Part shown: positions 1 through 38,520 of the stretch, one piece after another
Layout of the letters: each line of letters begins with the position of its first letter
Position numbering within the stretch: the stretch's first letter is position 1
Assembly: GCF_026210795.1 (NCBI RefSeq)
Contig: NC_089430.1
Location: forward strand, 4,340,001 to 4,404,000
DNA length: 64,000 nt
Source: Rhizophagus irregularis
Taxonomy: Eukaryota
Reading direction: 5' to 3'
Program-made: the position numbers and the translations under genes
The notes under the pieces: generated by a model
Database searches by the model: none
Seen by the model: only the letters and a program-made list of their open reading frames with translations
Told to the model about the DNA's origin: nothing

Positions 1-54
1 TAACTTAATGTTTCTTATTGTAATTTATTTATTTTTATTTATTTAATCTTTTAG

Positions 55-3000
55 GTTAAAAGGTATTCAGTAAGAAAAGTTCCTTATGAATTTCTTAAAA
101 TATATGGAATATCTCAGAATCCAGATACAAATGATTATATTTTAATTCAAAATAATTCCATAAACCTTGTAAACTGGATGAGTGGCAATGAACAAATTGA
201 TAATTTCATCCAAGAAATGCTATTGGAAACCAATTATTCCGATATATCATTTGAATGGATACCATATAATCAGCTCTATGCAATTAAAGAAACGGGAAAA
301 AATGATTTAATGACGCTATATTCAGCAATATGGAAAGATGGTCCATTGCATTATAATTCTAAAAATGAAAGAAATTCAAACAAAGAAGTTGTTTTAAAAT
401 GCTTGCATGACTCACATAATTTAATTGAATCTCTACTAATAAATGAGGTATGGTATTTCTATATATATATAACTTAGTGTTTCTTATTGTAATGTATTTA
501 TTTTATTATTTAATCTTCTAGGTTAAAAAGTATTTAGTGAAAAAATTTTGTTATAAGTCTCTTAAGTTATATGGGATATCTCAAAATTCGGATACAAATG
601 ATTATATTTTGATTTTTAACTGGACAAGTGGAAATGATAAAATTGATAATTTGATCCAAGAAATGCAATTGAAACCCAATCATTCTGATATAGTATTTGA
701 ATGGATACCATATAATCAGCTTTATGACATTAAAGAAACAGGAAAAGATAGCTTTATGACAGTATATTCAGCAATATGGAAAGATGGTCCATTATATTAT
801 AATTATAGAAATAAAGACCATTATATAAGAAATTCAAACATAAAAGTTGCCTTAAAATGTTTGCATAACTCATATAATCCAATTGATTCCCTAATAAATG
901 AGGTATAGTATTTTATTTGTATCCGAATGTTCCTTATCAAAATATTCATTTTATTAATGATTTAGGTTAAAACATATTCAGTAAAAATATTTGGTTATAA
1001 TAAGTTTATTGAAGTATATGGAATATCTCAAAATCCAAGCACAAATAATTATATTTTGGTTCAAAATAACTTCATAAATCTTGTAAATTGTATGAGTGGG
1101 AATGAAAAAATTGATGATTTAATTCAAACAATACAATTGAAATCAAATAATTCTGATATAATATTTGAATGGATACCATATGATCAGTTTTATGAAGTTA
1201 AAGAAAATGGCAAAAATGATTTAATGACAATAATTTCAGCAATATGGAAAGATGGTCCATTTCATTATGATTATAAAAATGATTATTATACAAGAAGTTC
1301 AAATGAAAAGGTTGCTTTAAAATGCATGCATAGCTTGCAAAGTCCAATTGAATGCCTAATAAATGAGGTATAATATTTCTATATATATTTTAATTTTCTT
1401 ATTGTAAAATTTATTTTATTTATTAATATTTTAGGTTAAAAAATACTCAGCAAAAATATTTGGTTATGAATTTATTAAAATATATGGAATATCCCAGAAT
1501 CCAGATACAAATGATTATGTTTTAGTTCAAAATAATTTCATAAACCTTGTAAATTGGATGAGTGGTAATGAAAAAATTGATAATTTCATTCAAGAATTGC
1601 AATTAGAAACCAATAATAACTTTGATATGATAGTATTTGAATGGATACCATATAATCGGATTTATAAAATTGAAGAAACAGGTAGAAATGATTTTATGAC
1701 AGTATATTCAGCAATATGGAAAGAGGGCCCACTATGTAGGAATTTGCGGAGCAGTAAATGTACAAGAAATTCAAATAAAAAAGTTGCTTTAAAATGCTTG
1801 CATAACTCACATAATTAAATTGAATCTCTAATAAATGAGGTATAGTATTTTGTATATATTTTAATGCTTCTTATTGTAATTTATTTATTTTTATTTATTT
1901 AATTTTTTAGGTTAAAAAGTATTCAGTAAAAAAATTTGGTTGTGAGTTTCTTAAGTTATATGGAATAACTCAGAATTCAGACACAAATGATTATATTTTG
2001 GTTTTTAACTGGACAAGTGGAAATGATAAAATTGATAGTTTCATCCAAGAAATGCAATCAAAATTCAATTATTCTGATGTATTTGAATGGATACCATATA
2101 ACCAGCTTTATGAAATTAAAGAAACGGGAAAAAATGATTTTATGACAGTATATTCAGCAATATGGAAAGATGGCCCATTACATTATAGTTTTAGAAATAA
2201 TGACTATTATATAAGAAATTCAAATGAAGAAGTCGCCTTAAAATGTTTACATAACTCACATAATCCGATTGAATCTCTAATAAATGAGGTATAGCATTTT
2301 ATATATAACTTAATGTAAGTTTCTTATTGTAATTTATTTTATTTTATTTATTAAACTTTTAGGTTAAAAGGTATTTATTAAAAAAAATTGGTTATGAATT
2401 TATTAAAATATATGGAATATCTCAGAATCCAGATACAAATGATTATATTTTAGTTCAAAATAATACAATAAACCTTATAGATTGGACAAGTGGAAATGAA
2501 AAAATTGATGATTTCATTAAAGAAATGCAATTTAAAACCAATAATCCTGACATAGTAATTAAATGGATATCATATAGTCAGTTTGATGAAATTAAGGAAA
2601 TAGGTAAAGGTGGTTTTGCTACAATATATTCTGCAATATTGAATGATTTCAAAGTTGCTTTAAAATGCTTGGACAACTCACAAAATCTCATTGATGAATT
2701 ACTAAATGAGGTAAGAATAATTACACAAATTTTCAATTATTTTTCAATATATTTTATTTATGTATGGATGTTTTATAGGTTAAGGCATATAAAGTAGTAC
2801 TTAACAATAGTAGATTAAGTAGAATTCTGAAAGTATACGGAATATCTCAGGATCCAGATACAAGAAATTATATTATTGTTCTTTATTATGCAGAGGGTGG
2901 AAATTTTAATAATTGGATAAATATAAATGAAAATTATAAATGCTTTAATTGGCAAAATAAAATACGAATATTATATAGTATTTCAAATGGTCTTAAAGAA

Positions 3001-3606
3001 ATTCATGAAAAACAGATGGTTCATCGCGATTTTCATACAGGAAATATATTATTTAATACTCCTTTTAGAGAAGAATATGCTAATAGGATTTATATTTCAG
3101 ACATGGGATTATGTGGAAATGTTAATGATATCAATCGAAATAATAAAAATAATATTTATGGAGTTATGCCTTATATTGCTCCTGAAGTATTAAGAGGAAA
3201 ACCTTATACTCAAGCAGCAGATATCTATAGTTTGGGTATGATAATGCATTTTGTAGCAACTGGAAGTCAACCTTTTGGCAATCGTGCACATGATCATAAT
3301 TTAGTATTAGATATTTATAATGAAATTAGGCCTGAAATAAACGAGCCAGAAGCACCAAAAAGTTACATTGACTTAATGAAAAAGTGCTGGGATTCAAATC
3401 CAGAAAATAGACCCAATATAACTGAATTTATAGAGTCACTTCGCTATATTAGTGTATCTGAAATTGAAGAAGCAGAAAATTATAGAAATTTACATCTCTC
3501 TACTTTAAAAGGAGATAGAAAGATAACTACTCATTCTCAAGCTGTTTATACATCTCGATTACTTAATCCTTTTACGGAATGTTTAGATTGTGCAATTACT
3601 GATTAA
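55..3606 (+). CDS. Multi-exon tyrosine-kinase-like protein kinase with tandem N-lobe-like repeat exons (5' end outside window; one in-frame TAA at 1816-1818, so possibly a pseudogene)
   Basis: Phase-0 GT-AG exons 55-447, 522-902, 966-1367, 1435-1839, 1911-2288, 2363-2710, 2779-3606. The last two exons carry GKGGF, VALK, HRDFHTGN, DMG, YIAPE and DIYSLG kinase motifs. Confidence 0.85.
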
Positions 3607-7380: not shown

Positions 7381-8912
7381 TCATAATATTAAATCCTCGC
7401 ATTTTCTATTTACGGTAAAGACTTCAATTTCCTCAATGGTATAAACTGTCGCAGTTTTTAACTTATTTTCATAACTTTGGCTACTATTATTAGCATATAA
7501 ACCATTACCGCTCATAACCAATGAACCCCAACCAAAACTAAATGCATTTTCTTTATGAACCATTATGGCTTGAGTTTCTTTTACTACCCGACTTATTTTC
7601 ATATTTTGAGTATCATCGCCATCTTCAAATGAGAAAATAAAATTATTTGATGAATTGTAAAATCGATAACCATACTCAACAATATAACCACATCCTAATG
7701 AACTGAATCCGATAGAACTGTATCCACCAAAAATCTTATTTGTATTTTTAACTTTGATTAAGACTAAACTTTCTACTCGTCCATTACATCTTATTCTAAA
7801 TGATCTATTATTAATTCCGTCACGACTACCACGATAAATAATATTAAGCTTATAAAATGGGCCATTTCTATTATTAATATACATGGCATCTTTATTATTA
7901 ATCCAATTAATTATTATTTTTGCAAGTTTTTGGTTGATAATATTTGATTTGAATATTAAACCAATTCTAGGAGGTAACATTGTAGTTATTGGTAAGGCGT
8001 CTTTATGAAATTCTTCAATTTCTTCATAAATATTATCAGTAATAATATTTCTATAAGGACGGACTTTATCAAAAAAATCGGCGTGAGAAATTCCTGCAAA
8101 TCGAATGAGAGGAATAAATTGATTTAAAGTATTTTTCAACGCTTCGTAATCTTCATAATTCCAGTTCTCTCTATCACAATTCTCATTTCCAAGACCTGGA
8201 GTTTGTTCAATACCCCATTTAATTAAATAATCCCAAATGATAATTTCTTCAATCTGTAAGTCGTCTCTTTTAAGTACGCCAAGAAGTATTTGTTTATTTA
8301 TTGAGGGAAAAGATTTTGAAGAAAAAAATGGTAGTAGATCTTCACGGATAGATTCAAGACAATAATCTTGTAATCTTTTGCAATTATCGAGTCTAAACAC
8401 GGTATTAAGAACAAATATGAAATTTTCCCGTACCCAATTTGTTTGTTTTTCAATTAAATAATCTTGAACATGTTCAAATAATTCTTCAAGTAGTAGTTCA
8501 TCGGATGCAACTAGTAGATCAAGAATATTCTCACCCGATTGTTCAGTTAAATCAAGTTCACCAGTATAAATGTATCTAATAAAAAGTTATATATATAATT
8601 TCGAATAAATTAATAATTTGAAATTTTGTAAAAAAAAAAAAAATTAAATGATTCTCACCTCAAAACCATATCAAAAATAGTTGGTGTTAAATTCGGTTTA
8701 CTAAATATAATCATATTATCTTTTTTTGTAATCCAATTAGAGGAAAGGGCACTTTTAAAATAAAGTGAACGAGCACGTAAGATAACTGAATGTGCACGAA
8801 ATTCTTTTATATTTTGATTTTCACCAACTTGAATAATAACATTATAATCATCTGCATCATCTAATATTAAGGAAAGGTCTTTTGAAAGACCATGATGAAA
8901 AGTTAAAGCCAT
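7381..8912 (-). CDS. BTB/POZ-BACK-TLDc domain protein (paralog 1)
   Basis: Exon 8912-8659 (DYNVIIQVGE..FRAHSVILRARS, BTB), intron 8658-8576, exon 8575-7381 (BACK-like IEEIIIWDYLIKWG; TLDc IYRGSRDG..IFGGYS..FIFSF..IEEIEVF). Confidence 0.9.
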
Positions 8913-10499
8913 ATATATTTTTTTTTTAAAAAAAAAAAAATTAAAAAAAAATTCTTCACACATTTAGGTTCAATTAAATATGGAAATCATTATGCTTAAA
9001 AATTTTGTAACATTACACCAAATTATTTCATATTTCTATATTAAGTTAGTTTATAATGAACCAAAGTAATGCGATGATCCGTTCTGTATTACGTAATTCT
9101 GGCCCTAGAACTAATAGTAAATGAGTGCCCTTGTTATATTGCCGCAACCGGTGTAACATAGTGATATATAGTGTCACCCATACCACCTCGGAAAGGAGTA
9201 ATGTCTAACCGTCACCGTTCACGTGACTTCCACGTTCGCCGAGGTTGGTTTGGTAAATGATCCCTTACACTTATCAATTGATAATCCGCATAACGTCAAG
9301 AATTGAAGTTCCTTTAATTTTTCTTACTGTTTGTATTTTTTTTAACAATCCATTATTTTTTCTTGCCATCAAGCATTTCTTTATTAAATATTATGCCAAA
9401 TAACATGGCAAATACTGTACAACAAATAGTACAAATACGTATATTTGCTTTTATCAATACTACATATATGATATATTATTTAAATGTGTATAATACATTG
9501 AGATATATTTTTTTTTGCACGAAAATGTGATAATTTATAGATAAAATTCGATATTTGTGTGGCGAGCATATTTTTTATATAACATTCTCTGAATTAATAA
9601 TATTTATTGATAATAGTACTATTAATGAAATGTATACTTTACTCTACGAATAAAAAAATATATAAGTACTAATTAAAAACAATATTAATAAAGTAGTTGA
9701 ATTTTTCTAAAACATTTTACACCCACAAAATTTAATCTAAATTATTCAAAATTAATTACATTTTAATAACATTTAGGATTAAACCAACTATTCATTTCAG
9801 AAATTAAACTTTTTTATTTCTAGTAAAAAGCATTGCCACTTACGTATTTTCATACAATTACTAATTCCCTAAAAGTATAGTGAAAAAAATGTTTCATTAT
9901 TTACAACGTCTCCTCCTTTTAAACAAAATAGTCGCCCTTAGAAATAGAATAAATATACAGTATGTGAATAGTATTAAAAAATAGAAAAACCAAAACTTGT
10001 ATTAAATTTTCATATAAGTCTTACGTCATAATTACAACTGTCCAGTCCCTGTGGCCAAGGCACCATGAAAGTATTTTAGGTTGAGTCTTCCCATAAAAGA
10101 TAGTTCTGTTATCCTGAGAGAAAAACATTTTTACAAAAATCTCTATATAGACTAAATAGAGAACATACTGTAGATGAAGAAAAATGTATTCACAGCAACA
10201 GACTGGATGTCACAATCAGAAAAGTTAGAATTTGAAAGTTTACCAAGGATACATCCTCAGATGCTGAAGTCGAATCCCAGCGACTGTAATATGATTTACT
10301 ACAAAGAGTGCAAACGCTTGAATTAAACCAAAAACAAGTAGGAGATGGAATTATTTATAAAGTGGATGTAGTATAACGAGATGATAAAAATGTTTTCAAC
10401 CTATTTTTACGTCCAAACGACTATACTACGTCAGAAGATAACATAATACTAAAGACAATCCAACATGTACAACAAGTTCAAAAACCTTTATACTCCTTC

Positions 10500-11300: not shown

Positions 11301-11955
11301 GTTCTGGTACTGAGAGCTCGGACTATCCAGATGCTGATGAGCTTTACAGCGAGCTGATCAATATAATTGGTATATACCGCCGTGTTATATACCGGTATAT
11401 GCCCTGCGATATATATAACATGTTATCTACCCATGTGGCATTTCTTACGCCACGCAGCCGTCTTCAAAGGTCAAAAATTACTCAGACTTTTTCATATGCC
11501 CACCTCCTTACTTCATAACAAAATTTGCAAAGAGTACTATTGTACTGGTGCTTGATACTCTCAAAAGAGATGTGAAAGTGAAAAAAAAAGACAAGTAAAT
11601 ATTAGTTTCAACTCTTTTATAGCTAATGATCGACAAGTTAAGTTGTTATTTTTATAATTTAGTGATGCCATCAAACTTTTCGGACGCTCTACCGGTTCTT
11701 TCTGCCTAATTAAATCTGGCTGAAAATTGGTATCTGCATTTTGCATAGATAATATTACACAAATATCTATATAGTATATATACTCGAATAAAGGCGTTTA
11801 ATTGTATTTACCCTATTTTTTAGGAAGAATTCCAATAAAATTATTTAGTAATGGCTCAAAGTAACGATGAAGGTAAAAGCATATAATATGAATATAGATA
11901 TCTAATACAAATTGAAATTGCTCTAAAATTTTTTTCAAACCAAATTTGCAACATA

Positions 11956-14900
11956 ATGAAACTAGTTTCAAAAATTGATAAGGATAAAGGTAAGAAAATT
12001 ATGTAACAATTTGTATATTTCTATTATTTTATATAATTAAATAATTTATTTTATTATTATAGTTGGTGAGTTAATAGCTATTTTTTTTTATTGAATTTTA
12101 CATGATATTTTAAATAACTAAATTTTCTATTAATATAATTGTTTAATAATTACGGTACTAATATCATAGAAAGTAAGTATTTAATTTTATATTAATTTAT
12201 AAGTATTTATAAATAATTTAAACTAATAATAATGTTTATTTAAATAATTAGATTGTAAGTTACTGTATATACTTAATTTTTATATACAATTATAATATTT
12301 TATCTAATTGATTATAATTACTTTACTTTATAATTATTATTAATTAATAATGCTACAGGGTGTAAGTTATTTATTTAATTCTATTATATTTACATAATAT
12401 TTACATATAATTTAAACTAACTAAATTCCTTATTTAAAAAATTATTCAAATATTTTAGACTGTAAGTAATTCTATTATATTTGTATAATACTTAAATATA
12501 ATTTAAACTAACTAAATTCTTTATTTAAAAATTATTTTGTAAATTCTTTTAGTTGGTAAGCTATAAGTTATTTATTTAATCCTATTATATTTATAACATT
12601 TACATATAATTTAAACTAACTAAATTCTTTATTAGATCGTAAGTAATTCTATTATATTTATATAATATTTACATATAATTTAAACTAACTAAATTCTTTA
12701 TTTAAAAAATTATTTTGTAATTTCTTTTAGTTGGTAAGCTATAAGTTATTTATTTAATCCTATTATATATATAATGTTTACATATAATTTAAACTAACTA
12801 AATTCTTTATTTAAAAAATTATTCAAATATTTTAGAATGTAAGTAATTCTATTATATTTATAATATTTACATATTAATTTAAACTAACTAAATTCTTTAT
12901 TTAAAAAATTATTTTGTAATTTCTTTTAGTTGGTAAGCTATAAGTTATTTATTTAATTATATTTATATAATATTTACATATTAATTTAAACTAACTAAAT
13001 TCTTTATTTAAAAATTATTTTGTAATTTCTCTTAGTTTGTGAGTTATAAGTTATTTATTTAATTCTATAATATTTATATAATATTTACATATAATTTAAA
13101 CTAACTAAATTCTTTATTGAAAAAATTATTCAAATATTTCAGATCGTAAGTAATTCTATTATATTTATATAAATTTACATATAATTTAAACTAACTAAAT
13201 TCTTTATTTAAAAAATTATTTATTAGGGTGTATGTTATTTATTTAATTATATTGTATTTACATAATATTTACATATAATTTAAACTAACTAAATTCTTTA
13301 TTTAAAAAATTATTCAAATATTTTAGATTGTAAGTAATTATATTATATTTATATAATATTTACATATAATATAATTTAAACTAACTAAATTCTTTATTTA
13401 AAAAATTATTCAAATATTTTAGATCGTAAGTAATTCTATTATATTTATATAATATTTACATATAATTTAAACTAACTAAATTCTTTATTTAAAAAATTAT
13501 TTATTAGGGTGTATGTTATTTATTTAATTATATTGTATTTAAATAATATTTATATATAATTTAAGCTAACTAAATTCTTTATTTAAAAAATTATTTTGTA
13601 ATTTCTTTTAGTTGGTAAGTTATAAGTTATTTATTTAATTCTATTATATTTATATATATTTACATATAATTTAAGCTAACTAAATTCTTTATTTAAAAAA
13701 TTGTTCAAATATTTTAGAACGTAAGTAATTCTATTGTATTTATATAATATTTACATATAATTTAAATTAACTAAATTCTTTATTTAAAAAATTATTCAAA
13801 TATTTTAGATTGTAAGTAATTCTATTATATTTATATAATATTTACATATAATTTAAGCTAACTAAATTCTTTATTTAAAAAATTATTTTGTAATTTTTTT
13901 TAGTTGGTAAGTTATAAGTTATTTATTTAATTCTATTATATTTATATAATATTTACATATAATTTAAACTAACTAAATTCTTTATTTAAAAAATTATTTA
14001 TTTAATAATATAGGGAGTATGTTATTTATTTAGTAATTCTATTATATTTATATAATATTTACATATAATTTAAACTAACTAAATTATTTAAAAAATCATT
14101 TAAAATATTTTAGCCTGTAAGTATTGCATTTTTTTAATTATAAAAATCTTATATTTTTATATTTAATTTATTATAATTATATAATATTTTACTCATAATA
14201 ATTAAATTTTTTTAAAAAATTTTGATAATTTATTTAGTTGGTAAGCTATAAGTTATATACTACTTATTTAAAATTTAAATCAATTAAATTAATTAATTAT
14301 TTATTATATTAAAATCTTACAATTTTATTTAGAGTAAGTATAATTAATATTATTTAATATTTAAATTTTTAATTGTAAATTTTATTTTAAATTTTAATTT
14401 TTCATTTTTGTATTTAAAGACTTGGTACTAGTGGAAGTGAAGTTGTGAATCAATTTATTCATAAAAATAAATTAAAATGGTTTCCTTATGATAGATTTGA
14501 AAATATTGAATATCTTGATAAAGGAGGATTTGGTACTATATATAAAGCTAAATATAATAGTATTGAAGTAATTTTTAAATATTTTGATCATCTTAATCAT
14601 TCAGATGAAAGTTTAAATGAATTTTTAAATGAAGTATGATTAAACATTATTATTTTTTTTTGATATTATAATTTATTTATATTAATTAATTAAATATTAT
14701 TTTTTTTATAGTGGAAAATTATTAATTCACATGGAATTATTAAAATATATGGATTCACAAAAGATCCAGATACATTGAATTATGTATTAGTGATGGAGTA
14801 TACAAATAAGTATAGTTTAAAAAGATGTTTAACAGAAATAACAAAAAATTGGAAACAAAAATTATTATATTTATATCAAATTATTAGAGGTCTTAATGAT

Positions 14901-16965
14901 ATTCATGAAAAAGATCTAATTCATTATAACTTTCATAATGGTAATATTTTATGTAACAAATATAAAGAAGAACTATATGGAATTTTTATTAGTGATTATT
15001 TAGGATTATATCAACTTGCAAAATCTTTTTTAAAAGAAAATGATATCTATGGAGTTTTACCATTTATAGCACCTGAAATTTTAAAAGGTCAACCCTATAC
15101 TCAAGCTAGTAATATATATAGTTTTTCTATAATTATGTGGGAATTTACATCTAAAATTCTACCATTTAATGATAAAGCACATGATCTTCAGCTTGCTTTA
15201 AGTATTTGTAAAGGTGAACGTCCTGAAATTATTGAAAATACTCCACAATGTTATATAGATTTAATGAAAAAATGCTGGGATGAAGATCCATTAAAAAGGC
15301 CATCTTCTAAAGAAGTTTTAAATATTATTGAAAATTGGATTTTTCTTTCACAGAATAAGGAGATTGAAGATATTAGTGAAGAATTAAAAAGCGATATTAT
15401 GGAATTTATAAATGCACCAATTGAGCATAATAAACTTATTGTAAAATCTCATCCAAAAGCATGCTATACAAGTCATTTACTTGATCTTACCAGTGAAGAA
15501 TTAAATGAAATTCTAGAAGATTCTCAAGGATTTCTTAAATCTTTGAAACAAAAATATCAAAGTTCTCAAAATGAGTTTGATTATCACTCTACAAAACCGA
15601 AAATAAAATGGATTTCATATTCACAAATTAAAAGTTTAAAAAAAATAGCAGAAGGAGGGTTTGGTATTATTTATAAAGCTTTAATTAATGGAGACGTTGT
15701 TGCTATAAAAAAAGTTTTAAATTCTCAAGAACCAAATAAATATTTTTTAAATGAGGTAATTAATTTTCAAAATTTTTTTTTTAAAGATATTTAATATACT
15801 AATTTGAACTATAAAATTTTAGTTAAAATCACTTTATCAATGTTATGATAGTAAATTTGAATATATTATTAAATGTCATGGTATCACAAAAGATCCTATA
15901 ACAAAAGAATATATGTTTATAATGAAATATGCAAATGGAGGAGATTTACATAATTATTTACAAGAGAATTTTGCAGAGATTACATGGAAGAAAAAATTGC
16001 ACATTTTGTGGCGAATTTCAGATGGGTATCTATAACTTAACGTTAATTAATAATGATTTTAAAATTATTTAAACAAAATTTTATTAATAACCAATTTTTT
16101 ATTTTAGACTTCAAACTATTCATAAAAAAAATTTCGTACATCGAGATTTTCATAGTGGAAATATATTGGTTGAAATAATTGAAAATGATTCATGTAAAAT
16201 AGATCAATATCTAATTGGAGATTTAGGATTATCACAGCCCGCAAATGACATACATGATAGCAGTATATATGGAGTAATACCTTATATTGCACCAGAAATA
16301 TTTAAAGGCGGCAAATTTTCCAAATCATCTGATATTTATTGTATGGGCATGATTATGTGGGAATTAACATCTGGTCGTAAACCTTTTGCTAATGTTGAAC
16401 ATGATGTTGATTTAATTTATAAAATTATTGATGGAAAACGGCCTAATATTACTGACGATACTCCCGAAGATTTTGCTAATTTAATGAAAAAATGTTGGAA
16501 TCCTGATCCTAAAAAAAGACCTTCAGCAACGCATGTTTGTGAAATTTTTAATTCTTGGTCAAATATGGAAATGGTTGCCGAATATTTTAATCAAGCTGAA
16601 GAAATAAGATTAGAATTAATAAAATCAAAAATGATTGGACCAGATTTCAATGAGAAATCTCATTCAAAAGCAATTTATACTAGTAGATCATTAAGCTCTT
16701 TAACTGGTTCACCTTCAATTATAACGTTTAATACGAAACCAAGTATGTAAACATTATTTTTTATATAAATTTGGACAATATTTACAACATTTTAACATTT
16801 AATAAATATTATCATCTTAGATAATAAACTTATTGAAGAATCAATCAACAATAAAGGTATTAAGTTATCTTTTAATCAGTACGTAAAGGAATTTATTAAT
16901 TACTTGATTTTTTTTCTTTAGAATATATTACAAAAGAATACGAGCATGATATAAATAAAATTTAA
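11956..16965 (+). CDS. Tandem pseudokinase-kinase (TKL-like) with an N-terminal region encoded by micro-exons
   Basis: First exon ends 11989 (ATG at 11956; upstream in-frame ATG 11851 is cut by TAA 11884-11886). Then 23 three-nt exons plus one 1-nt exon, followed by exons 14420-14633, 14712-15755, 15823-16025, 16108-16742, 16821-16856, 16922-16965. Domain 1 has HYNFHNGN; domain 2 has HRDFHSGN, DLG and APE. Confidence 0.8.
12063..14333 (+). repeat. Tandem array of ~80-125 bp intron plus micro-exon units
   Basis: Recurring unit gt(a/g)(a/t)g...TTTAAACTAACTAAATTCTTTATT...(t/c)ag-NNN; 24 AG-[1 or 3 nt]-GT junctions counted. Confidence 0.9.
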
Positions 16966-21973: not shown

Positions 21974-23470
21974 TTATCTATCTTCAATAAAGGTTTCAAT
22001 TTCCTTAATAGTATAAGTTGCCGCCTCAATATTTAAATTATTTTCATAATTTTGGCAAGCATTATAATTAACAAATAATTTTTCATTGTCCATGACCAAT
22101 GAACCTTGACCAAAATTAAATCCACTATAACAATCTAATATGGCACGAGATTTATTTACTACCCGACTTATTTTCATATTTTGAGTATCTTCACTATCTT
22201 CAAACGAGAAAATAAAATTATCTGATGAATCATAAAATTTAAGACTATGAACATTATTAAAATTATATCCTAATGAACTAAATCCGATAGAACTGTATCC
22301 ACCAAAAATTTTACTTGTATTTTCAACTTTAACCAAAACTAAACTTGCTACTCGACCATTACATTTATTTCTAAATGAATAATCACTAATTCCGTCACGA
22401 ATACTACGATAAATAGGTTTAAACCTATATAATAGATCATTACCAGTACGAGGATTTTTAGAATTTTTTTTAACAATCCAATTTTCTATAATTGGATTTA
22501 CAAGTTCTAAGTTAATAATATTTGATTTAATTTTTCTTATTCTAATTGGTAAAGATGGTGAAATACTATTATAATAAAATTCTTCAATTTCTTTAAAAAT
22601 GTGACTAGGGATAATGGCCTTATATGGATAGACTTTATTAAATAAGTCTTTATGAGAAATTCCCACAAATCGAATAAGAGGAATAAATTGATTTAAAATT
22701 TGTTTCAATGAATCATAATTATCATTATCCCAATTTGTTCTATCACTATTACTACTACTTCCTAAACCAGCAGAAGTTTGTTCAATACCCCATTTAATTA
22801 AATAATCCCAAACTTTAACTTCTTCAATTTGTAAGTTATCACTTTCAAGCAAATTAAAAAGAGAGTCTTTATCCAATGAAAGAAAAGATTTTGAAGTAAT
22901 AAATGGCAAAGGATCTTCACAGATAGATTCAAAACAATAGTCTTGCAAGTTCTTACAACTGACAAGTCTAAAAACTGTATTAAGAACGAGAACAAAATTT
23001 TGACGAACCCATATGTTTTGTTTCTTAATTAAATAATCTTGAACATGTTCAAATAACTCTTCAAGTAGTAATTCATCAGATGCAACTAATAGACCAAGAA
23101 TATTTTCACCCGATTGTTTAGTTAAATCAAGTTCACCAGTGTAAATATATCTAATAATATTTATTCCGGATAAGTTTAGAATTTAAAAAATTGTAAAAAA
23201 ATTAAATGATTCTCACCTCAAAATCATATCAAAAATAGTTGGTGTTAAATTCGGTTTACTAAATATAATCATATTATCTTTCTTTGTAACCCAATTAGAA
23301 GAAAGAGCTCCTTTGAAATAAGAAGAACGAGCACGTAAAATAACTGAATGTGCACGAAATTCTTTCATATTTTGATTTTCACCAACTTGTATAATAACAT
23401 TGTAATCATCTGCATCATCTAATATTAAGGAGAAGTCTTTTGAAAGACCAAGATGAAAAATTGAAGCCAT
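21974..23470 (-). CDS. BTB/POZ-BACK-TLDc domain protein (paralog 2)
   Basis: Exon 23470-23217, intron 23216-23151, exon 23150-21974; same motifs and intron position as paralog 1. Confidence 0.9.
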
Positions 23471-23600
23471 TTTTTTTAAAATATTTTTTTAAAAAAAAAC
23501 ACCTTATTTTTATAAAAATAATCACATGCATTTGGTGACTAAAAATATGTAACGATGACACGATGTACAATAAACTAATGCATTTTTAGTGAGATTTGCA

Positions 23601-24620: not shown

Positions 24621-26133
24621 TTACCTATTTACAGTAAAGGTTTCAATTTCTTCAATAGTATAAACTGTTAAAGTATTTAAATTATTTTCATAATTTGAGC
24701 AAGTATTATTAACATGTAATCCTTCATAGCTCATGCTCAATGAACCTTGACCAAAATTGAATCCATTATGGTAATAATCCAATATGGCATGAGAACTGTT
24801 TATTACCCGACTTATTTTCATATTTTGAGTATCATCGCCATCTTCAAATGAGAAAATAAAATTATCTGATGAATTATAAAATTTAAAACCATTATCATTA
24901 ATAAAATCATCTCCTGATGAATTAAATCCTATAGAACTATATCCACCGAAAATCTTACTTATATTTTTAACTTTGATTAAGACTAAACTTGCTACTCGTC
25001 CATTACACTTTTTTTTAAATGATTTGCTACCAATTCCGTCACGACTACTACGATAAATAAGATTAAACTTATAAAATGGATCATTTCTATTATTACGAAT
25101 ATACATAGTATCTTTATTGTCAATCCAATTAATTATTATTTTTGCAAGTTTTGGTTTGATAATATTTGATTTGAATATTAAACCAGCTCTGGTCGGTAAA
25201 ATGGTAGTTTTTGGTAAGGAGTCTTTATAATGAAATTCTTCAATTTCTTTGTAAATATGAGTAGGAATAATGGTTCTATAAGGATGAACCTTATCAAAAA
25301 AATCTGCACGAGAAATTCCTGCCAATTGAATGAGAGGAATAAATTGATTTAAAGTTATATTCAATGTTTCGTAATCCTTATAATTCCATTTCGCTCTATC
25401 ACTATTCTCATACCCAAGACCAGGAGTTTGTTCAATACCCCATTTAATTAAATAATCCCAAATGACAACTTCTTCAATTTGTAAGTCGTCTCTTTTAAGC
25501 AAGCCAAGAAGTATTTCCTTATTTATTGAGAGGAAAGATTTTGAAGAAAAAAATTGTAGTGGATCTTCGCAGATAGATTCAAGACAATAATCTTGTAATC
25601 TCTTGCAATTATCAAGTCTAAACACGGTATTAAGAACAAATACAAAATTTTCTCGAACCCAATTTGTTTGTTTTATAATTAAATAATTTTGAACATGTAT
25701 AAATAATTCTTCAAGTAATAATTCATCGGACGCAACTAATAGATTAAGAATATTTTCACCCGATTGTTCAGTTAAATCAAGTTCACCAGTATAAATGTAT
25801 CTAATAAAAAGTTATATATATAATTTGAATAAAATCAATAATTTGAAATTTTGTAAAAAAAAAATTAAATAATTCTCACCTCAAAACCATATCAAAGATA
25901 ATTGGTGTTAAATTCGGTTTACTAAATATAATCATATTATCCTTTTTTGTAACCCAATTAGAAGAAAGGGCACTTTTAAAATAAAGAGAACGAGCACGTA
26001 AAATAACTGAATGTGCACGAAATTCTTTTATATTTTGATTTTCACCAACTTGAATAATAACATTATAATCATCTGCATCATCTAATATTAAGGTAAAGTC
26101 TTTTAAAAGACCATGATGAAAAATTAAAGCCAT
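24621..26133 (-). CDS. BTB/POZ-BACK-TLDc domain protein (paralog 3)
   Basis: Exon 26133-25880, intron 25879-25801, exon 25800-24621; BTB, BACK-like and TLDc motifs. Confidence 0.9.
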
Positions 26134-29050: not shown

Positions 29051-31035
29051 AGTGATACGTTTTATATAGAAATATACGAAAAATAAATAATAAAACATAA
29101 TTAAGAAATTTCTAATTCAATATCAGAAAGAAAAGAAATATTATTGTTTATTATAAAGCGTGGGTAATTGAACAGTTTCATCGCAAAGTTTTAACGTCCC
29201 TAAATAATACAACAATAAATATAACGTGAAAATATTTGTCGTACAAATATAATATAAAAGTAGTTAATTTTTCTCAATTCGAATTTGGAAGCAAAACTGC
29301 ATCGGACCTTTTTTACCGATTTATACAATAAGTTATGTGAAATTAAAAATTTACTCTAAACTTATATTAGCTAATCCAAGTACAGTTAGTCGATGATCGG
29401 TAGCACATCATGACAAAAATGTATCACAAGATCAAAATATCATTGATTCAATGAAGATCTACATTTGAAACTTGATATTTTTGTTGAATCAGCATAAAAC
29501 CTCAATTAGTTGGTAAAGTATCCTAATCTAGTTAATCTTTTGGTTATATTCCGATTAGTGAAAAATTCTTGATTTCCGTATTTAAACTACAATTACTGGA
29601 ATAATAATATTTTTTAGATGATATCAATTAAACGGAATCATTGATTAGAATATTTAATCATATTAATCATATTTAATCATACGTACATTAAAATAATTTA
29701 ACTTTGCTGTTACAAAATAAACTTTTAATAAAATAAATATAATATTTAAATAAATAACCGTAGACCGAAATTAGTTAATATAGTTAATGTACAGTATATT
29801 ATTCCATATAATTTTACTACATTTAGTCTTCGTAAAAGAAAATGACGTAAATCTCTAGAATGTAAGTACCGTATTATAAGAGTCGATAAAATTATTGACG
29901 TAATCTTTATCGAAAACAAATAAAAATAGTGCGATAATTATTATACGATACTTTTTCGTTTTTTCTCATAAAGTTAATTCTTGATCTCTAATTGAAAAAT
30001 CTTATTAAGTAATAGTCATTTAATCCCAACTTTATGTAACAAATTTACCACATTTACTATATTTATACTTCTTGAAATTAAAAAGTATATTTCGTTATTA
30101 CACAAAAGTATTAAAATAATGTAACTTTCCAAAAACTACAAGAAAAGTACCGAATTCTTTTATATTATGAAAACAATTCATAAATAAAAATCTTTTTTGG
30201 AGAGAATATAAAGTGAATGGTTATATCGATATAAGTTTTCTTCCATAAAAGTGAAAATTTCATTTAAAAAATTTAAAAAAGTACGTCTTTCTTTTTCAAA
30301 TAATTTAATTGCCGATCCACATGTGATTGATAGCTAATTTAAAATCTGCGTTCCCCCACCATAGATAAGTCGATCAATTTTTTAACCAAATTACTTAAAA
30401 AAAACCTTGAGATTATTTCTTTTTTATTCAAGTATTTAATATTAACACTATAAAACAAAAATTTTACAAAAAATTCTCAAACATTGCCAATTAGTCAAAA
30501 TATAAATTTGCCCACTTTTTTTTTGCCTTATAAAAGTACCGGCTAGAAGCCTCAAATTTTATATTTACATACTTTTACAAATGTATTAATATATCCTTTA
30601 AAAAAATTAATTGAAAAAATACGATTTTTTTTTATATTTGATTTAATAATTTTAAGCAATTATTGATTTTTTGCGATTTTTTCAAATTTTTCAGAAATTT
30701 GATACTTTAAAGTTTAAAATGATCTGCGCCGCCCGCAGTGTTTATTTTTAGATTTATTAAGTAAAAATCAGGTTTTCAATTAGTCTATCGTTCACATGCG
30801 GACTACCAATTAATTATTACACAATATGCTTTATCCGGGCTAGTGTATTTTGGCCGCAGGAGCAAACGCAGCAATATTTGTGGCTAATCTGTACCCGTGG
30901 TCAATTTTACGTCTAAATTAATATCGCCATTTAGTAAGCAATACAAACAATGATACTCCCCAAATTTAGCTTGTGCAACCTTATTTAACTTAAAATATAA
31001 CCCAAAAAAAAATACTTGTAACTTATTTAAATAAA

Positions 31036-32518
31036 ATGACTTCAATTTTTTATTCCAATCTTTCAAAGGACTTTTCCTCAATATTAGATAATGCAGATGA
31101 TTATAATGTTCTTATTAAAGTTGGTGAAAACCAAAATATAAAAGAATTTCGTGCACATTCAGTTATTTTACGTGCTCGTTCTTCTTATTTCAAAGGAGCT
31201 CTTTCTTCTAATTGGATTACGAAGCAAAATAATATGATTATGTTTAATAAACCAAATGTTACTCCAACTGTATTTGAAATGATTTTGAAGTAAGAATAAT
31301 TTTATTTTATTAATTATATCATACAGTATTACTGTTATTTATTTGTTTTAAAATATTATTAGATATATTTATTCTGGTGAGCTCGATTTGACTAATCAAA
31401 CAAGCGAAGACATTCTCGGATTGTTAATTGCATCTGATGAATTACTTCTTGAAGAATTATTTACGTATGTTCAAAATTATTTAATTAAGAATCAATTTAG
31501 TTGGGTTCGTCAAAATTTTGTTCTCGTTCTTCATACAGTTTTTAGACTTGTCAGTTGTAAGAAATTACAAGATTATTGTTTTGAATCTATCTGTGAAGAT
31601 CCTTTGCCATTTATTACTTCAAAATCTTTTCTTTCATTAGATAAAGACATTCTTTTTAATTTGCTTGAAAGTGATAACTTACAAATTGAAGAAGTTACAG
31701 TTTGGGATTATTTAATTAAATGGGGTATTGAACAAACTTCTGCTGGTTTAGGAAGTAGTAGTAATAGTGATATAACAAATTGGGATAATGATAATTATGA
31801 TTCATTGAAACAAATTTTAAATCAATTTATTCCTCTTATTCGATTTGTGGGAATTTCTCATAAAGACTTATTTAATAAAGTCTATCCATATAAGGTTATT
31901 ATCCCTAGTCATATTTTTAAAGAAATTGAAGAATTTTATTATGATGGTATTTCACCATCTTTACCACTTAGAATAAGACAAATTGAATCAAATATTATTA
32001 ACTTAGAGCTTATAAATCCAATTATAGTTAATTGGATTGATAAAAAAAATCCTAAAATTCCTCGTACTGGTAATGATCCATTATATAAATTTAAACTTAT
32101 TTATCGTGGTAGTAGGAATGGAATTAATAGTGAATCATTTAAAAATAAATGTAATGGTAAATTAGCAAGTTTAGTTTTAATTAAAATTAAAGGATCAAAT
32201 AAAATTTTTGGTGGTTATAGTTCTATAGGTTTTAATTCATTAGGAGGTATTAAAAGTGAATTATTATATTATAATTCATCAAATAACTTTATTTTTTCTT
32301 TTGAAAATAATAAAGATATTAAAAATATGAAATTAGGTCGTGTAAAAAATTATTCTAAAGCTATAATAGATTATAATGATCATGGTTTTAATTTTGGTTG
32401 GGCTATGTGTATGGTTAATCAAAATTTATGTCTTAATGATTATGGTTATTATGAAAAGATTTTACCTACAGATGAAATTTTTAATATTGAAGAAATTGAA
32501 ACTTTTATTGTAACTTAA
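31036..32518 (+). CDS. BTB/POZ-BACK-TLDc domain protein (paralog 4, inverted orientation)
   Basis: Exon 31036-31289, intron 31290-31362, exon 31363-32518; same domain motifs. Confidence 0.9.
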
Positions 32519-33604: not shown

Positions 33605-35468
33605 CTAAAACCTTCCGAACCAGGAAGAACATTTTCTGTTGACATTACGCGTATTGCTAATAAGTTGATTGAAACTTGATGTAGATAAGGTCTCACATTT
33701 AAATGATAATTTTTTTGCTTGTTCTTTTGGGCTGCGTAATTTATTAAAAAAATTATCAAATGATTCTTGTAAAAGACTACGTACTGTCAGAAAAATATCT
33801 ATTTCATCAACAAAATGTGACATTGTCTTTACCGAAGTGGGAATCGATGCTTGACCAATATGATGCATAATATATAGCCCTGGAGCATTAAGTTCCATTG
33901 CATAAAAATCAATTGTATATTCTAGAAAGCAATGATGAAATTTTAGGATTACATGAAGGAGCAAAGCAACAATTATTTAATTTATCTTACCTATACATTG
34001 AAAACCTAGAACTTTAATATCTGCACCTTTGTCTAAGGCCGAATCAATGCATTCTTTCATAAAAACTCCAATTCGGATTAAATCATTACAGTTCTTATGC
34101 ACGTTTTCTTTCTCTGCAGGCGAGGTTACTTCACCTACAAATAATGATCCCCTCTTTTCTAATTGGTGGATTGCTGATACTAAGAAATCAGGCTGCCTCA
34201 CTCTGCCTTCTACTTTACTAGCTTTAGTTTCCTGGCCCGTGTTAGGCCATTCAATTATATACTTATCAGGGTGATGAAATAGTCCTTTCATGATGTAATC
34301 TAGATAATTAGTAATGAGTGTAATCTCACTTGGTTTACATTTTAATTTATGACTGGGCAAAGACTTTAATCCATCTAAAATAACAAATCCCAGGTTTTCT
34401 TTAAGATTAATACTTTCAGGTTTTGCTGAGTTTCCTAGTAATGAATTAATAGCATTATCTCGTGAGATATTGATTGACTGTTTTATGATACTTTTAAATT
34501 TAGCTTCATATTCCACATTAAATTCTTGTTTATTTGGTTTGAGCTTGTCACTTATTTTGTCTAATAAGTCTAAACCAAAGATATTTATCATCATTTCAGA
34601 ATGGGAATTTGGTGAAAGCATGAAAATTGAAGTCAAAGATAAAATTTCGTGGACATCTGCCTCCACATATAAACCACCAGAATTAGCGAGATTAAATGAT
34701 TCATCTCGATACTGTCGAAATAATTTTGATATATTAAATCTATCTATAATAAGTTCATTTTCATTATTACTATTATCTAAAAATGATCGAGGAACATCTC
34801 TTATAATTGTAATTTCATCATGTTCATTATTGTCATCTGAATCAATTGTTAGCGAAGGTAATTTTTTCATTTCAGATGAGGGTGGAGAGTACATTGATTC
34901 ATAATCTGTCCTGGACTGAATTAAAAAAGTGATATATGTAAGTTTTTTTCAACCAATGTAAGTGTAGAAAACACTGCTAAAGTTATACCATTACCTTTTT
35001 TGTTGGTGTTATGTCATCCTCATCTCTTCGCTTTTTCTGTGTGAAAACCTCCAATAATTCTTCGTCTTGTTGCACTCTAGTGACATCAGAACCATCAATT
35101 GAGACATTGCTTTGAACTTGTTGTTTCTCAGAGGTGGAACATTTTTCATATTCTGCTATTGAATCCCAAAATGCAGCAACTTCCTTGGACTGACATGACA
35201 TATTGAGTTAATTTACATTTTGCAAAAGGGACACTAAATAAATTAGAAAATTATTACTTACAGATATCTCTTCCATCAACCCTTTTGCATGATTCTGAAC
35301 GAATTGTGGTAGTTCTTGGTCTTCACTCAATGAATACAGGAGTTTTATGTACTTTTCATCGATTGATTTCTGTTCAGTACTCTTTAGTTTCTGTTTTGAA
35401 CCAAGCTGGTGCAGAAACTCGATAAAAGTGCAAGTTATGAAAGGAGCTGATGAAAAGTATTTATGCAT
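33605..35468 (-). CDS. Four-exon protein with C-terminal PD-(D/E)xK restriction-endonuclease-like fold (Crinkler/CR-REase-like), copy 1
   Basis: ORF segments 35468-35208, 35201-34983, 34894-33977 and 33964-33605 are joinable by GT-AG introns; motif RQPDF...FVGEVT...DLIRIG.FMK..ID...GFQ..G...FY...L...GLYIM. Confidence 0.7.
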
Positions 35469-35919: not shown

Positions 35920-38520
35920 GCTAAAATTGTAAATTAATTTACTAAAATATAGAAGTAAACAATATCAAAACCATTGATAAAAAAATACAACTTAAAAAGA
36001 ACTATTGGCTCCCTATCTACTATAATAAACTACCCAGACAGACGAGCCCAACCTTTCCATATTGCATAATTATATTTTTGACACATTAAGATATTAATTC
36101 TATAATATATTTGGAAGAAAATTTTGATTGTTTGAGAGTTGGATCTACTTACACTATTGTATGCAACTAATGTCGTATTGTTGTTATTTCGGTCAGAGAA
36201 ATTCCTTACCATGTGCCCTGGCTGCTAAAATTATAAGTCAATTTATTAAATTATAAAGTTAAACAGTATAAAAACTATTGATACAATACAACTTAAAAAA
36301 AACTATTGGCTCCCTATATACTATAGTAAACTACCCAGACAGACAAACCCAACTTTTCTATATTATGTAATTATATTTTTTGACACATTAAGATATTAAT
36401 TCCATAATATATTTGGAAGAAAATTTTGATTGTTTGAGGGTTATTCGGTCAGAGAAATTCCTTACCATGTGCCCTGGCTGCTAAAATTGTAAGTCAATTT
36501 ATTAAATTATAAAAGTAAAAAGTATTAAAACCATTGATACAAAAAATAATACTTAAAAAGAACTACTGGCTCCCCTATCTATTGTTGTAAACTACCCAGA
36601 CAGACGAACCCAACCTTTCCATATTGCGTAATTATATTTTTTGACACATTAAGATATTAATTCCATAATATATTTGGAAGAAAATTTTGATTATTTAAGA
36701 GTTGGATCTACCTTCACTATTGTATGTAACTGATATCGTATTGTTGTTATTTTGGTCAGAACAATTCCTTACTATGTGCCCTGGCTGCTAAAATTATAAG
36801 TCAATTTATTAAAATATAAAAGTAAACAGTATAAAAACCATTGATACAAAAAATACAACTTAAAAAAAAACTATTGGCTCCCTATATACTATAGTAAACT
36901 ACCCAGACAGACGAACCCAACTTTTCTATATTGCGTAATTATATTTTTTGACACTAAGATATTAATTCTATAATATATTTGGAAGAAAATTTTGATTATT
37001 TAAGAGTTGGATCTACCTTCGCTATTGTATGTAACTGATATCATATTGTTGTTATTTTGGTCAGAACAATTCCTTACTATGTGCCCTGGCTGCTAAAATT
37101 ATAAGTCAATTTATTAAAATATAAAGTTAAACAGTATAAAAACCATTGATACAAAAAATACAACTTAAAAAAAACTATTGTCTCCCTATATACTATAGTA
37201 AACTACCCAGACAGACGAACCCAACTTTTCTATATTGCGTAATTATATTTTTTGACACATTAAGATATTAATTCCATAATATATTTGGAAGAAAATTTTG
37301 ATTGTTTGAGGGTTATTCGGTCAGAGAAATTCCTTACCATGTGCCCTGGCTGCTAAAATTGTAAGTCAATTTATTAAATTATAAAAGTAAAAAGTATTAA
37401 AACCATTGATACAAAAAATAATACTTAAAAAGAACTACTGGCTCCCCTATCTATTGTTGTAAACTACCCAGACAGACGAACCCAACCTTTCCATATTGCG
37501 TAATTATATTTTTTGACACATTAAGATATTAATTCCATAATATATTTGGAAGAAAATTTTGATTATTTAAGAGTTGGATCTACCTTCACTATTGTATGTA
37601 ACTGATATCGTATTGTTGTTATTTTGGTCAGAACAATTCCTTACTATGTGCCCTGGCTGCTAAAATTATAAGTCAATTTATTAAAATATAAAAGTAAACA
37701 GTATAAAAACCATTGATACAAAAAATACAACTTAAAAAAAAACTATTGGCTCCCTATATACTATAGTAAACTACCCAGACAGACGAACCCAACTTTTCTA
37801 TATTGCGTAATTATATTTTTTGACACTAAGATATTAATTCCATAATATATTTGGAAGAAAATTTTGATTATTTAAGAGTTGGATCTACCTTCGCTATTGT
37901 ATGTAAGTAATGTAACTGATATCATATTGTTGTTATTTTAGTCAGAACAATTCCTTACTATGTGCCCTGGCTGCTAAATTATTAGTCAATTTATTAAAAT
38001 ATAAAAGTAAACAGTATAAAAACCATTGATACAAAAAATACAACTTAAAAAAAACTATTGGCTCCCTATATACTATAGTAAACTACCCAGACAGACGAAC
38101 CCAACTTTTCTATATTGCGTAATTATATTTTTTGACACATTAAGATATTAATTCCATAATAGTATATTTGGAAGAAAATTTTGATTATTTAAGAGTTGGA
38201 TCTACCTTCGCTATTGTATGTAAGTAATGTAACTGATATCGTATTGTTGTTATTTTAGTCAGAACAATTCCTTACTATGTGCCCTGGCTGCTAAAATTAT
38301 AAGTCAATTTATTAAAATATGAAAGTAAACAGTATAAAAACCATTGATACAAAAAATACAACTTAAAAAAAACTATTGGCTCCCTATATACTATAGTAAA
38401 CTACCCGGACAGACAAACCCAACTTTTCTATATTGCGCAATTATATTTTTTGACACATTAAGATATTAATTCCATAATATATTTGGAAGAAAATTTTGAT
38501 TGTTTGAGAGTTGAATAAAA
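35920..38520. repeat. Tandem array of 9 units of ~260-320 bp
   Basis: Marker AACTACCC(A/G)GACAGAC at ~36028, 36329, 36590, 36897, 37201, 37461, 37769, 38080, 38399; diverged reverse-complement copies at ~59450-60580. Confidence 0.9.

What the first reader, a model, noticed from the sequence alone, without database searches (positions are those of the whole stretch)
11956..14444. Hidden chain of 23 three-nucleotide micro-exons encoding the N-terminus of a tandem kinase
Seen in sequence: each repeat unit ends in AG, followed by exactly 3 nt and a donor (GTAAG/GTGAG/GTATG); most introns contain AACTAAC, matching the fungal branch-point consensus. Exon starts: TTG 12063, AAA 12170, ATT 12252, GGT 12359, ACT 12459, TTG 12553, ATC 12636, TTG 12731, AAT 12836, TTG 12930, TTT 13036, ATC 13143, GGT 13227, ATT 13327, ATC 13423, GGT 13508, TTG 13612, AAC 13718, ATT 13809, TTG 13904, GGA 14014, CCT 14114, TTG 14238. 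Joined to the upstream exon ending in a phase-1 G (11989), the 1-nt exon (14333) and the exon at 14420, they read MKLVSKIDKDK-VENWYFDLEFVYRYYRFEHFGTFE-LGTSGSEVVNQF, stop-free and in frame with the kinase. Every residue is split by an intron. Inference: a one-residue-per-exon system that could diversify a receptor-like kinase by exon skipping or copy-number change. It is conceptually like the schistosome micro-exon genes but at minimal exon size, and it is invisible to ORF finders and most aligners.
Basis: partly seen in the sequence, partly recalled or inferred. Interest (0 to 1): 0.97.

Follow-up and report, generated by a model that had tools for sequence, protein, structure and literature searches.

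The report
One-codon exon chains in mycorrhizal kinases
A kinase gene of a root-symbiotic fungus has 23 three-letter pieces, each between full splice signals; related kinases carry similar chains, which likely encode a fast-changing front end one amino acid at a time.

Summary
All 23 acceptor-3 nt-donor units and the 1-nt exon lie at the stated places. The gene is a Rhizophagus irregularis tandem kinase. My computed spliced model has 763 aa, and its last 626 equal the public annotation, which misses the front end.

The layout is not a local accident. Of 80 related metagenome loci, 44 reach the first kinase exon: 29 have micro-exons upstream, 8 zinc-finger relatives have none, and 7 have little upstream DNA. 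Two subfamilies keep the same phase-1 frame by different joins. Neighbouring triplets never make a stop (0 of 80; 3.8–5.0 expected), but skip-one pairs do (6 of 59). Triplets differ about six times faster than flanking intron positions. All 26 array kinase domains in my tree are non-RD.

No read was seen that crosses the micro-exons, so splicing is inferred. The closest known case is the 3-bp mini-exons of Tuber melanosporum NLR genes. The scan has noted similar arrays in other genomes. I found no paper on this in AM fungi. A sensor role is likely but untested.

The parts
11851..11872 (+). Likely start exon (coding part; ATG 11851, phase-1 donor GTAAAA at 11873)
   Evidence: Its translation (MAQSNDE) resembles the N-termini of annotated paralogs P0275 (MALSNDK), P0274 and P0264. 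Inferred.
11966..11989 (+).
   Evidence: tag|...|gtaaga; in frame in the computed model
12063..14240 (+). Array of 23 three-nucleotide exons, each flanked by phase-1 introns built from a few ~90-nt repeat types (starts 12063, 12170, 12252, 12359, 12459, 12553, 12636, 12731, 12836, 12930, 13036, 13143, 13227, 13327, 13423, 13508, 13612, 13718, 13809, 13904, 14014, 14114, 14238)
   Evidence: Tandem periods 91, 178 and 482. Splicing inferred.
14333..14333 (+). 1-nt adaptor exon converting phase 1 to the phase-2 start of the kinase exon
   Evidence: The same 1-nt exon is in L004, L005, L006, L008; a 4-nt version is in L011, L013, L015.
14420..14633 (+). First large exon: N-lobe of kinase domain 1 (Gly-rich loop)
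   Evidence: RNA depth (mostly paralog reads) drops in the bin holding 14420, and reads join 14633 to 14712.
14712..15755 (+). Rest of kinase domain 1 (catalytic loop HYN, predicted pseudokinase) and start of domain 2
   Evidence: Identical to P0001; Pfam PF07714/PF00069, two stretches
15823..16965 (+). Exons 15823-16025, 16108-16742, 16821-16856 and 16922-16965: kinase domain 2 (VAIK, HRD, DLG, APE intact) and C-terminal tail
   Evidence: The computed model reproduces P0001 exactly

Best explanation
The array is likely a real chain of 3-nt exons, predicted to be spliced in order so that each intron junction builds one codon of a short, variable N-terminal peptide on a Rhizophagus pseudokinase-kinase. 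Each exon gives the last two bases of one codon and the first base of the next. Tandem duplication of an intron-plus-triplet unit adds one residue, and loss of a splice site removes one, both without shifting the frame. Point changes build up in the triplets faster than in the introns. So the peptide would diversify mainly in the genome (between paralogs and alleles), not by free skipping. The peptide sits where related kinases carry a CxxC zinc finger or SEL1 repeats, and the kinase domains behind it are non-RD. Its most likely job is therefore a variable binding or decoy module of a cytoplasmic non-self-sensing kinase. Shown: layout, conservation, frame, stop avoidance, divergence, non-RD motif. 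Inferred: splicing (about 0.8) and sensor role (about 0.4).
For: (1) In 80 related loci, 3-nt cores occur 91 times on the kinase strand and 3 times on the other. 29 of the 44 loci that reach the first kinase exon have micro-exons upstream; 0 of 8 zinc-finger-type loci do. (2) Upstream core lengths in 28 array loci: 81 of 3 nt, 4 of 1 nt, 4 of 4 nt, 1 of 6 nt. Intron lengths vary in all three classes mod 3. (3) Frame compensation: subfamily B has no adaptor and an acceptor 32 nt before the Trp of WTS (phase 1). Subfamily A has a 1-nt exon with offset 4 or a 4-nt exon with offset 1 (phase 2), the same total. (4) Phase-1 stops between neighbours: 0 of 80, against 3.8 (within-chain shuffle, P = 0.006) or 5.0 (pooled, P = 0.0014). 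Without the window: 0 of 58, P = 0.037 and 0.012. Phase 2 has 16 of 80, as expected by chance. (5) Between near-identical units, triplets differ at 16 of 51 sites and held-out intron triplets at 37 of 744 (Fisher P = 2e-8). A pair-free count in the window gives 4 changes in 9 columns against 10 in 114 (P = 0.016). (6) A shared intron motif is in 17 of 25 window introns, 4 of 5 other A introns and 27 of 53 B introns, and a close variant occurs 0 times in the other 61.4 kb. (7) 26 of 26 array kinase domains are non-RD (HCD 23, HCN 2, HYN 1); 5 of 8 zinc-finger-type are HRD. (8) The model restores the N-lobe that the annotated P0001 lacks. In L033 the phase-1 frame is the only one of three open before the donor.
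Against: No read or contig was seen that contains the joined triplets. RNA was laid only on 14395-15300, and the loose ends at 14420 were not among the rows shown (197 hidden). Only 8 of 1378 and 9 of 1725 laid reads were 99%+ alike, so expression of this copy is not shown. None of the database proteins I inspected carries this N-terminal peptide; those whose sources were shown are genome or metagenome gene calls. Repeat units are related, so the P values overstate independence. Faster triplet change could partly reflect constraint on the introns. L005 has an in-frame stop just after its array, L020 and L050 look interrupted upstream, and decayed units are visible in L006, L023 and L078. My first start model for L033 failed, and the open one was found afterwards. 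SEL1-type relatives are also non-RD, so non-RD marks the wider clade and not the array. Tuber nank mini-exons are reported as alternatively spliced, so skipping may occur here too.
Confidence: 0.72

Rival explanations
1. Combinatorial skipping: the exons are real but each transcript includes a subset, giving a large isoform repertoire from one gene, as reported for Tuber nank genes.
For: Any skip keeps the frame. All 23 single skips give distinct peptides and only 2 create a stop. There is precedent in Tuber.
Against: Skip-one pairs are not depleted of stops (6 of 59, against 2.9-3.7 expected), while adjacent pairs are. Random skipping at 20% per exon would put a stop in 28% of transcripts. 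Low-level skipping is not excluded.
Confidence: 0.15
2. Tolerated expansion: an intron-triplet minisatellite spreads by unequal crossing-over because it is frame-neutral. It is spliced, but the peptide is a free linker under no selection except against stops.
For: Recent tandem duplications, no peptide conservation between loci, decayed units and interrupted arrays
Against: Triplets change about six times faster than adjacent intron positions. Arrays persist in two diverged subfamilies despite the cost of many introns.
Confidence: 0.25
3. Non-coding or unspliced repeat: the array is a satellite inside one long intron or 5' UTR, and the splice-like motifs are inherited from a single copied unit.
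For: No RNA across the array. Many paralog annotations start at a Met inside the first kinase exon.
Against: Strand bias 91 to 3, near-fixed 3-nt size while introns diverge, frame-compensating adaptors and phase-specific stop avoidance. This gene has no Met in that exon: the first in-frame Met after 14420 lies inside the kinase domain.
Confidence: 0.07
4. The triplets are read in phase 0, from ATG 11867, as a 42-residue hydrophobic peptide unrelated to the kinase.
For: Phase 0 is stop-free and hydrophobic in the window, and no triplet among 101 is itself a stop
Against: It is out of frame with the kinase in both subfamilies. T at triplet position 2 (59 of 101) is the wobble base in phase 1 and makes phase 0 look hydrophobic. 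TAx/TGx triplets would place a competing donor right at the acceptor, which explains their absence (inference).
Confidence: 0.03

Closest known systems
3-bp (codon-sized) mini-exons of the expanded nank (NACHT-ANK) NLR family of Tuber melanosporum (Iotti et al. 2012, PMID 22289772; paper not held, seen only through passages of PMC4986451, PMC10197012, PMC9815663, PMC13449251)
   Same: Fungal symbiont, expanded gene family, tens of 3-nt exons in a row, proposed diversification of a recognition region
   Different: Here: Glomeromycotina Tyr/Ser-Thr-type kinases, with no NACHT or ankyrin domain found, and an N-terminal position where the Tuber exons are said to vary the C-terminal recognition domain. 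Evidence points to ordered inclusion with genomic divergence, while alternative splicing is reported for Tuber. The intron phase in Tuber is unknown to me.
Scattered 1-3 nt micro-exons of fungi (Coprinopsis cinerea, PMC12230235, passages: 13 exons of 1 nt, 27 exons of 3 nt in 26 genes)
   Same: Shows that fungal spliceosomes include 1-nt and 3-nt exons
   Different: About one per gene there, against 23 consecutive here, built by tandem duplication
Schistosoma micro-exon genes (MEGs; recalled, no paper read)
   Same: Runs of frame-keeping micro-exons
   Different: MEGs are secreted proteins made almost wholly of 6-36-nt exons and varied by skipping (recalled). Here 3-nt exons precede a cytoplasmic kinase.
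Plant non-RD receptor kinases (PMC3411088, passages) and tandem kinase-pseudokinase resistance proteins with integrated domains (PMC8761531, PMC13478195; search listing and abstract start only)
   Same: Cys or another residue in place of Arg before the catalytic Asp; pseudokinase plus kinase in one chain; variable added domain as candidate sensor
   Different: Analogy only: no homology or immune function was tested, and there is no LRR or apparent membrane span here
Expanded tyrosine-kinase-like family of Rhizophagus irregularis (PMC4219462, passage)
   Same: The gene is a member: PF07714/PF00069, identical to POG81705.1 / XP_025188571.1 over 626 aa
   Different: The annotation omits the start exons, the array and the first kinase exon

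Membership tests
Rhizophagus/Glomeromycotina PK_Tyr_Ser-Thr kinase expansion | PF07714/PF00069 domain above the curated cut-off | tested here: met
   236 and 219 bits, two stretches, on P0001
Tandem pseudokinase-kinase | Two kinase domains, one lacking the catalytic Asp | tested here: met
   Domain 1 HYN/DYL, domain 2 VAIK/HRD/DLG. Activity not assayed.
Codon-sized micro-exon array | Consecutive 3-nt segments each with canonical acceptor and donor | tested here: met
   23 of 23
Codon-sized micro-exon array | Triplets joined in mature RNA | tested here: inconclusive
   RNA laid only on the kinase exons; upstream loose ends not displayed. Indirect support.
Tuber nank mini-exon NLRs | NACHT and ankyrin domains | tested here: not met
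   Only kinase families hit P0001
Tuber nank mini-exon NLRs | Extensive alternative splicing of the mini-exons | tested here: inconclusive
   Stop pattern argues against free skipping; no isoform data
Schistosome MEGs | Short secreted protein made mostly of micro-exons | tested here: not met
   23 of 763 residues come from the triplets, followed by two kinase domains. Family definition recalled.
Non-RD immune kinases | No Arg before the catalytic Asp | tested here: met
   26 of 26 array domains. In this gene domain 1 is HYN and domain 2 is RD.
Non-RD immune kinases | Signalling upon recognition of a microbial molecule | not testable with these tools
   Needs experiments

The most novel reading that the evidence does not exclude
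Arbuscular mycorrhizal fungi have a family of cytoplasmic non-RD kinase receptors whose recognition peptide is written one codon per splice junction. The zinc-finger or SEL1 front end of related kinases is replaced by an expandable intron-triplet cassette, so length and sequence of the binding peptide evolve residue by residue under diversifying selection. This would be a hidden receptor repertoire that the annotations I saw all miss.
Probability: 0.35. Interest if true: 0.9.

Novelty: new variant of a known kind. Interest (0 to 1): 0.74.

Why it matters
The kinase expansion of AM fungi is a known but unexplained trait. If these chains are spliced, a set of those kinases is annotated without its most variable part, and that part becomes a concrete candidate for how the fungus tells self, host, endobacteria or rivals apart. 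The gene also needs 24 consecutive exons of 1-3 nt to be spliced correctly, a clean natural test of how spliceosomes handle exons too short to be defined on their own. One RT-PCR amplicon would test both points. Codon-sized exon arrays themselves are already known from truffle NLR genes, which limits the novelty.

Tried and rejected
No whole genome was held, so paralogs in this strain could not be counted. The run search listed no holder on record as RNA; this is no evidence either way. Two raw RNA runs and two contig sets laid on 14395-15300 gave mostly paralog reads and did not show the sequence upstream of 14420; the array itself has no RNA laid on it. Three homolog searches and one profile search gave no protein that I could recognise as transcript-derived. 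None of the 80 loci was a spliced transcript by my test. The first start model for L033 had stops, and my first downstream exon borders were off (fixed). The careful tree did not finish, so the quick tree was used; L036, L037 and L075 were left out as near-copies, and only loci with a classifiable front end were included (crashed). The first divergence test chose pairs by flank similarity and was replaced by the held-out test. A frameshift at 14420 relative to the W-T-S type was rejected, because paralogs share this phase-2 start. An assembly artefact was rejected as the origin of the layout, because independent contigs show it; the copy number 23 was not checked. Literature: searches for microexon + Rhizophagus, micro-exon + arbuscular mycorrhizal and searches listed no paper on such arrays in Glomeromycotina. 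Subscription papers and supplements were not seen. Iotti 2012 and two other papers were not held.

Full report
Observation. The 3-nt pattern occurs only twice more on + and twice on - in 64 kb. The 25 introns are 73-121 nt, with consensus donors and TAG/CAG/AAG acceptors. They are built from a few ~90-nt repeat types with higher-order periods of 178 and 482 nt, a sign of tandem duplication. AACTAAC is in 14 of 25 introns, mostly 38-48 nt from the 3' end. Its role as branch point is an inference.

The gene. The large kinase exon is 100% identical to a Rhizophagus irregularis DAOM 181602/197198 protein (P0001; POG81705.1), whose annotation starts at a Met inside the kinase domain. A computed model from ATG 11851 through the 24-nt exon 11966-11989, the triplets, the 1-nt exon and six larger exons gives 763 aa without a stop. 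Residues 138-763 equal P0001. Domain 1 has HYN in the catalytic loop (predicted pseudokinase) and domain 2 has intact motifs.

Relatives. One scan of metagenome contigs kept the best 80 of 253 loci; the search patterns favour this clade. In them, 3-nt cores occur 91 times on the kinase strand and 3 times on the other. Of the 80 loci, 36 do not reach the first kinase exon, 29 have micro-exons upstream, 8 carry a CxxC zinc finger and no micro-exon, and 7 have only 24-209 nt upstream and no hit. Introns differ in length and sequence between loci but share a motif that is absent from the rest of the window. Their species are not given; I take them for Glomeromycotina from protein likeness.

Frame. 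Subfamily B has no adaptor, and its kinase exon starts 32 nt before the Trp of the WTS motif (35 in L022), which is phase 1. Subfamily A, with the window, has a 1-nt exon plus an acceptor at offset 4, or a 4-nt exon plus an acceptor at offset 1: phase 2, with the same total. Both put the triplets between phase-1 introns. In L033, the only locus with an apparently intact upstream region, the phase-1 frame is the only one open before the donor; my first start guess there failed. In a quick tree of 50 domains, A (support 88) and B (97) each form one side of a branch, and SEL1-repeat kinases lie next to A with weak support (82).

Order matters. Over 21 chains (101 triplets; L036 and L037 dropped as near-copies), neighbours give 0 stops in 80 phase-1 junction codons. 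Shuffles expect 3.8 or 5.0 (P = 0.006, 0.0014). Without the window it is 0 of 58 (P = 0.037, 0.012). Phase 2 shows 16 of 80, as expected by chance. Pairs two apart show 6 of 59 and pairs three apart 2 of 45, with no depletion. Sense codons with the same two-letter endings are not depleted after A or G; after C there are 0 against 1.1 expected. This is the pattern expected if the exons are normally joined in order. It argues against free skipping, though the units are related and the numbers are small.

Diversification. Among near-identical units, triplets differ at 16 of 51 sites and held-out intron triplets at 37 of 744. A pair-free count in the window gives 4 of 9 against 10 of 114 columns (P = 0.016). 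Either the triplets are under diversifying selection or the introns are constrained, or both. Junction residues are rich in Tyr, Glu, Asp, Phe and Arg, largely because of triplet composition. Decayed units (L006, L023, L078), interrupted arrays (L020, L050) and a stop after the array in L005 show birth and death. All 26 array domains in the tree are non-RD, against 3 of 8 zinc-finger types; SEL1 types are non-RD too. In plants, non-RD receptor kinases, often with Cys, serve microbial recognition (PMC3411088, passage). That is an analogy, not a test.

RNA. No listed holder is on record as RNA. Two raw polyA runs with the same species label, and two contig sets, were laid on 14395-15300. Reads are mostly 88-95% alike, so they come from paralogs or another strain; 8 of 1378 and 9 of 1725 are 99%+ alike. 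They join 14633 to 14712 at GT..AG, depth in that intron is near zero, and depth falls from about 19 and 26 to 1.3 and 2.3 in the bin that holds 14420. So the family is transcribed and spliced. The letters upstream of 14420 were not displayed, and splicing of the triplets remains unshown.

Mechanism. Most likely, 24 tiny exons are spliced in order and give a short hydrophilic, aromatic-rich N-terminal peptide (GRAVY -0.59). Unequal crossing-over adds residues, splice-site loss removes them, and point changes in a triplet alter one or two residues. The peptide occupies the place of the zinc finger or SEL1 repeats of related kinases and would act as a variable binding or decoy module. Odds: about 0.8 for splicing in phase 1 and about 0.4 for the sensor role.

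Known systems. The nearest is the Tuber melanosporum nank family, with dozens of alternatively spliced 3-bp mini-exons (Iotti 2012, seen only through passages of four papers). Isolated 1-3-nt exons are documented in Coprinopsis (passages). Eight searches on micro-exons or on this kinase family listed nothing on such arrays in AM fungi; subscription papers and supplements were not seen. Earlier notes of this scan describe one-codon arrays at kinase-HET, kinase-tail and LRR genes of other genomes; they are unchecked and not used as support.

Verdict. Real, conserved in a kinase clade, probably spliced in order; a new variant of a known kind. Interest 0.74.

Noticed in passing
window 36183-38513, minus strand: A second tandem array (periods about 260-318 nt, 8 copies). 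Each copy has a branch-point-like TGACT[TA]A, tandem YAG acceptors and a GTAAGG donor, enclosing a near-identical 8-, 12- or 15-nt candidate exon. It may be another short-exon array; no flanking gene was sought.
   Followed up: partly
window 5-3606: About six tandem ~446-nt units, each an ORF resembling a kinase N-lobe, in front of an HRD kinase: another way of expanding a kinase front end by exon repeats.
   Followed up: no
proteins P0274, P0275 (R. irregularis annotations): Close paralogs have the same kind of start, followed by acidic 8-residue repeats in the place of the micro-exon peptide. Their exon structure is unknown; the window's 24-nt exon also spans 8 codons.
   Followed up: no
L011, L013, L015 versus window 14333: The adaptor exon is 4 nt where the kinase exon starts 3 nt later, and 1 nt where it starts earlier: an apparent one-codon shift across an intron.
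   Followed up: partly
proteins P0002, P0004, P0009, P0011: Nearest paralogs share the first, pseudokinase-type domain but end in a long coiled-coil-like tail instead of a second kinase. P0009 is annotated with SEL1 repeats in front.
   Followed up: no
window 7381-8963, 21974-23488, 24621-25811, 30994-32518: Four paralogous genes that look like BTB/BACK-TLDc proteins (label recalled, not scanned).
   Followed up: no
window 33605-34948 and 61473-62816: Two diverged copies of the same unknown gene on opposite strands. Retroelement-, helitron- and Tc1-like ORFs lie between them (labels recalled).
   Followed up: no
L016, L019, L021 and others: 18 hits of a 6-nt core on + (mostly GATTAT) lie inside kinase coding sequence and are not micro-exons as far as I can tell.
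   Followed up: no
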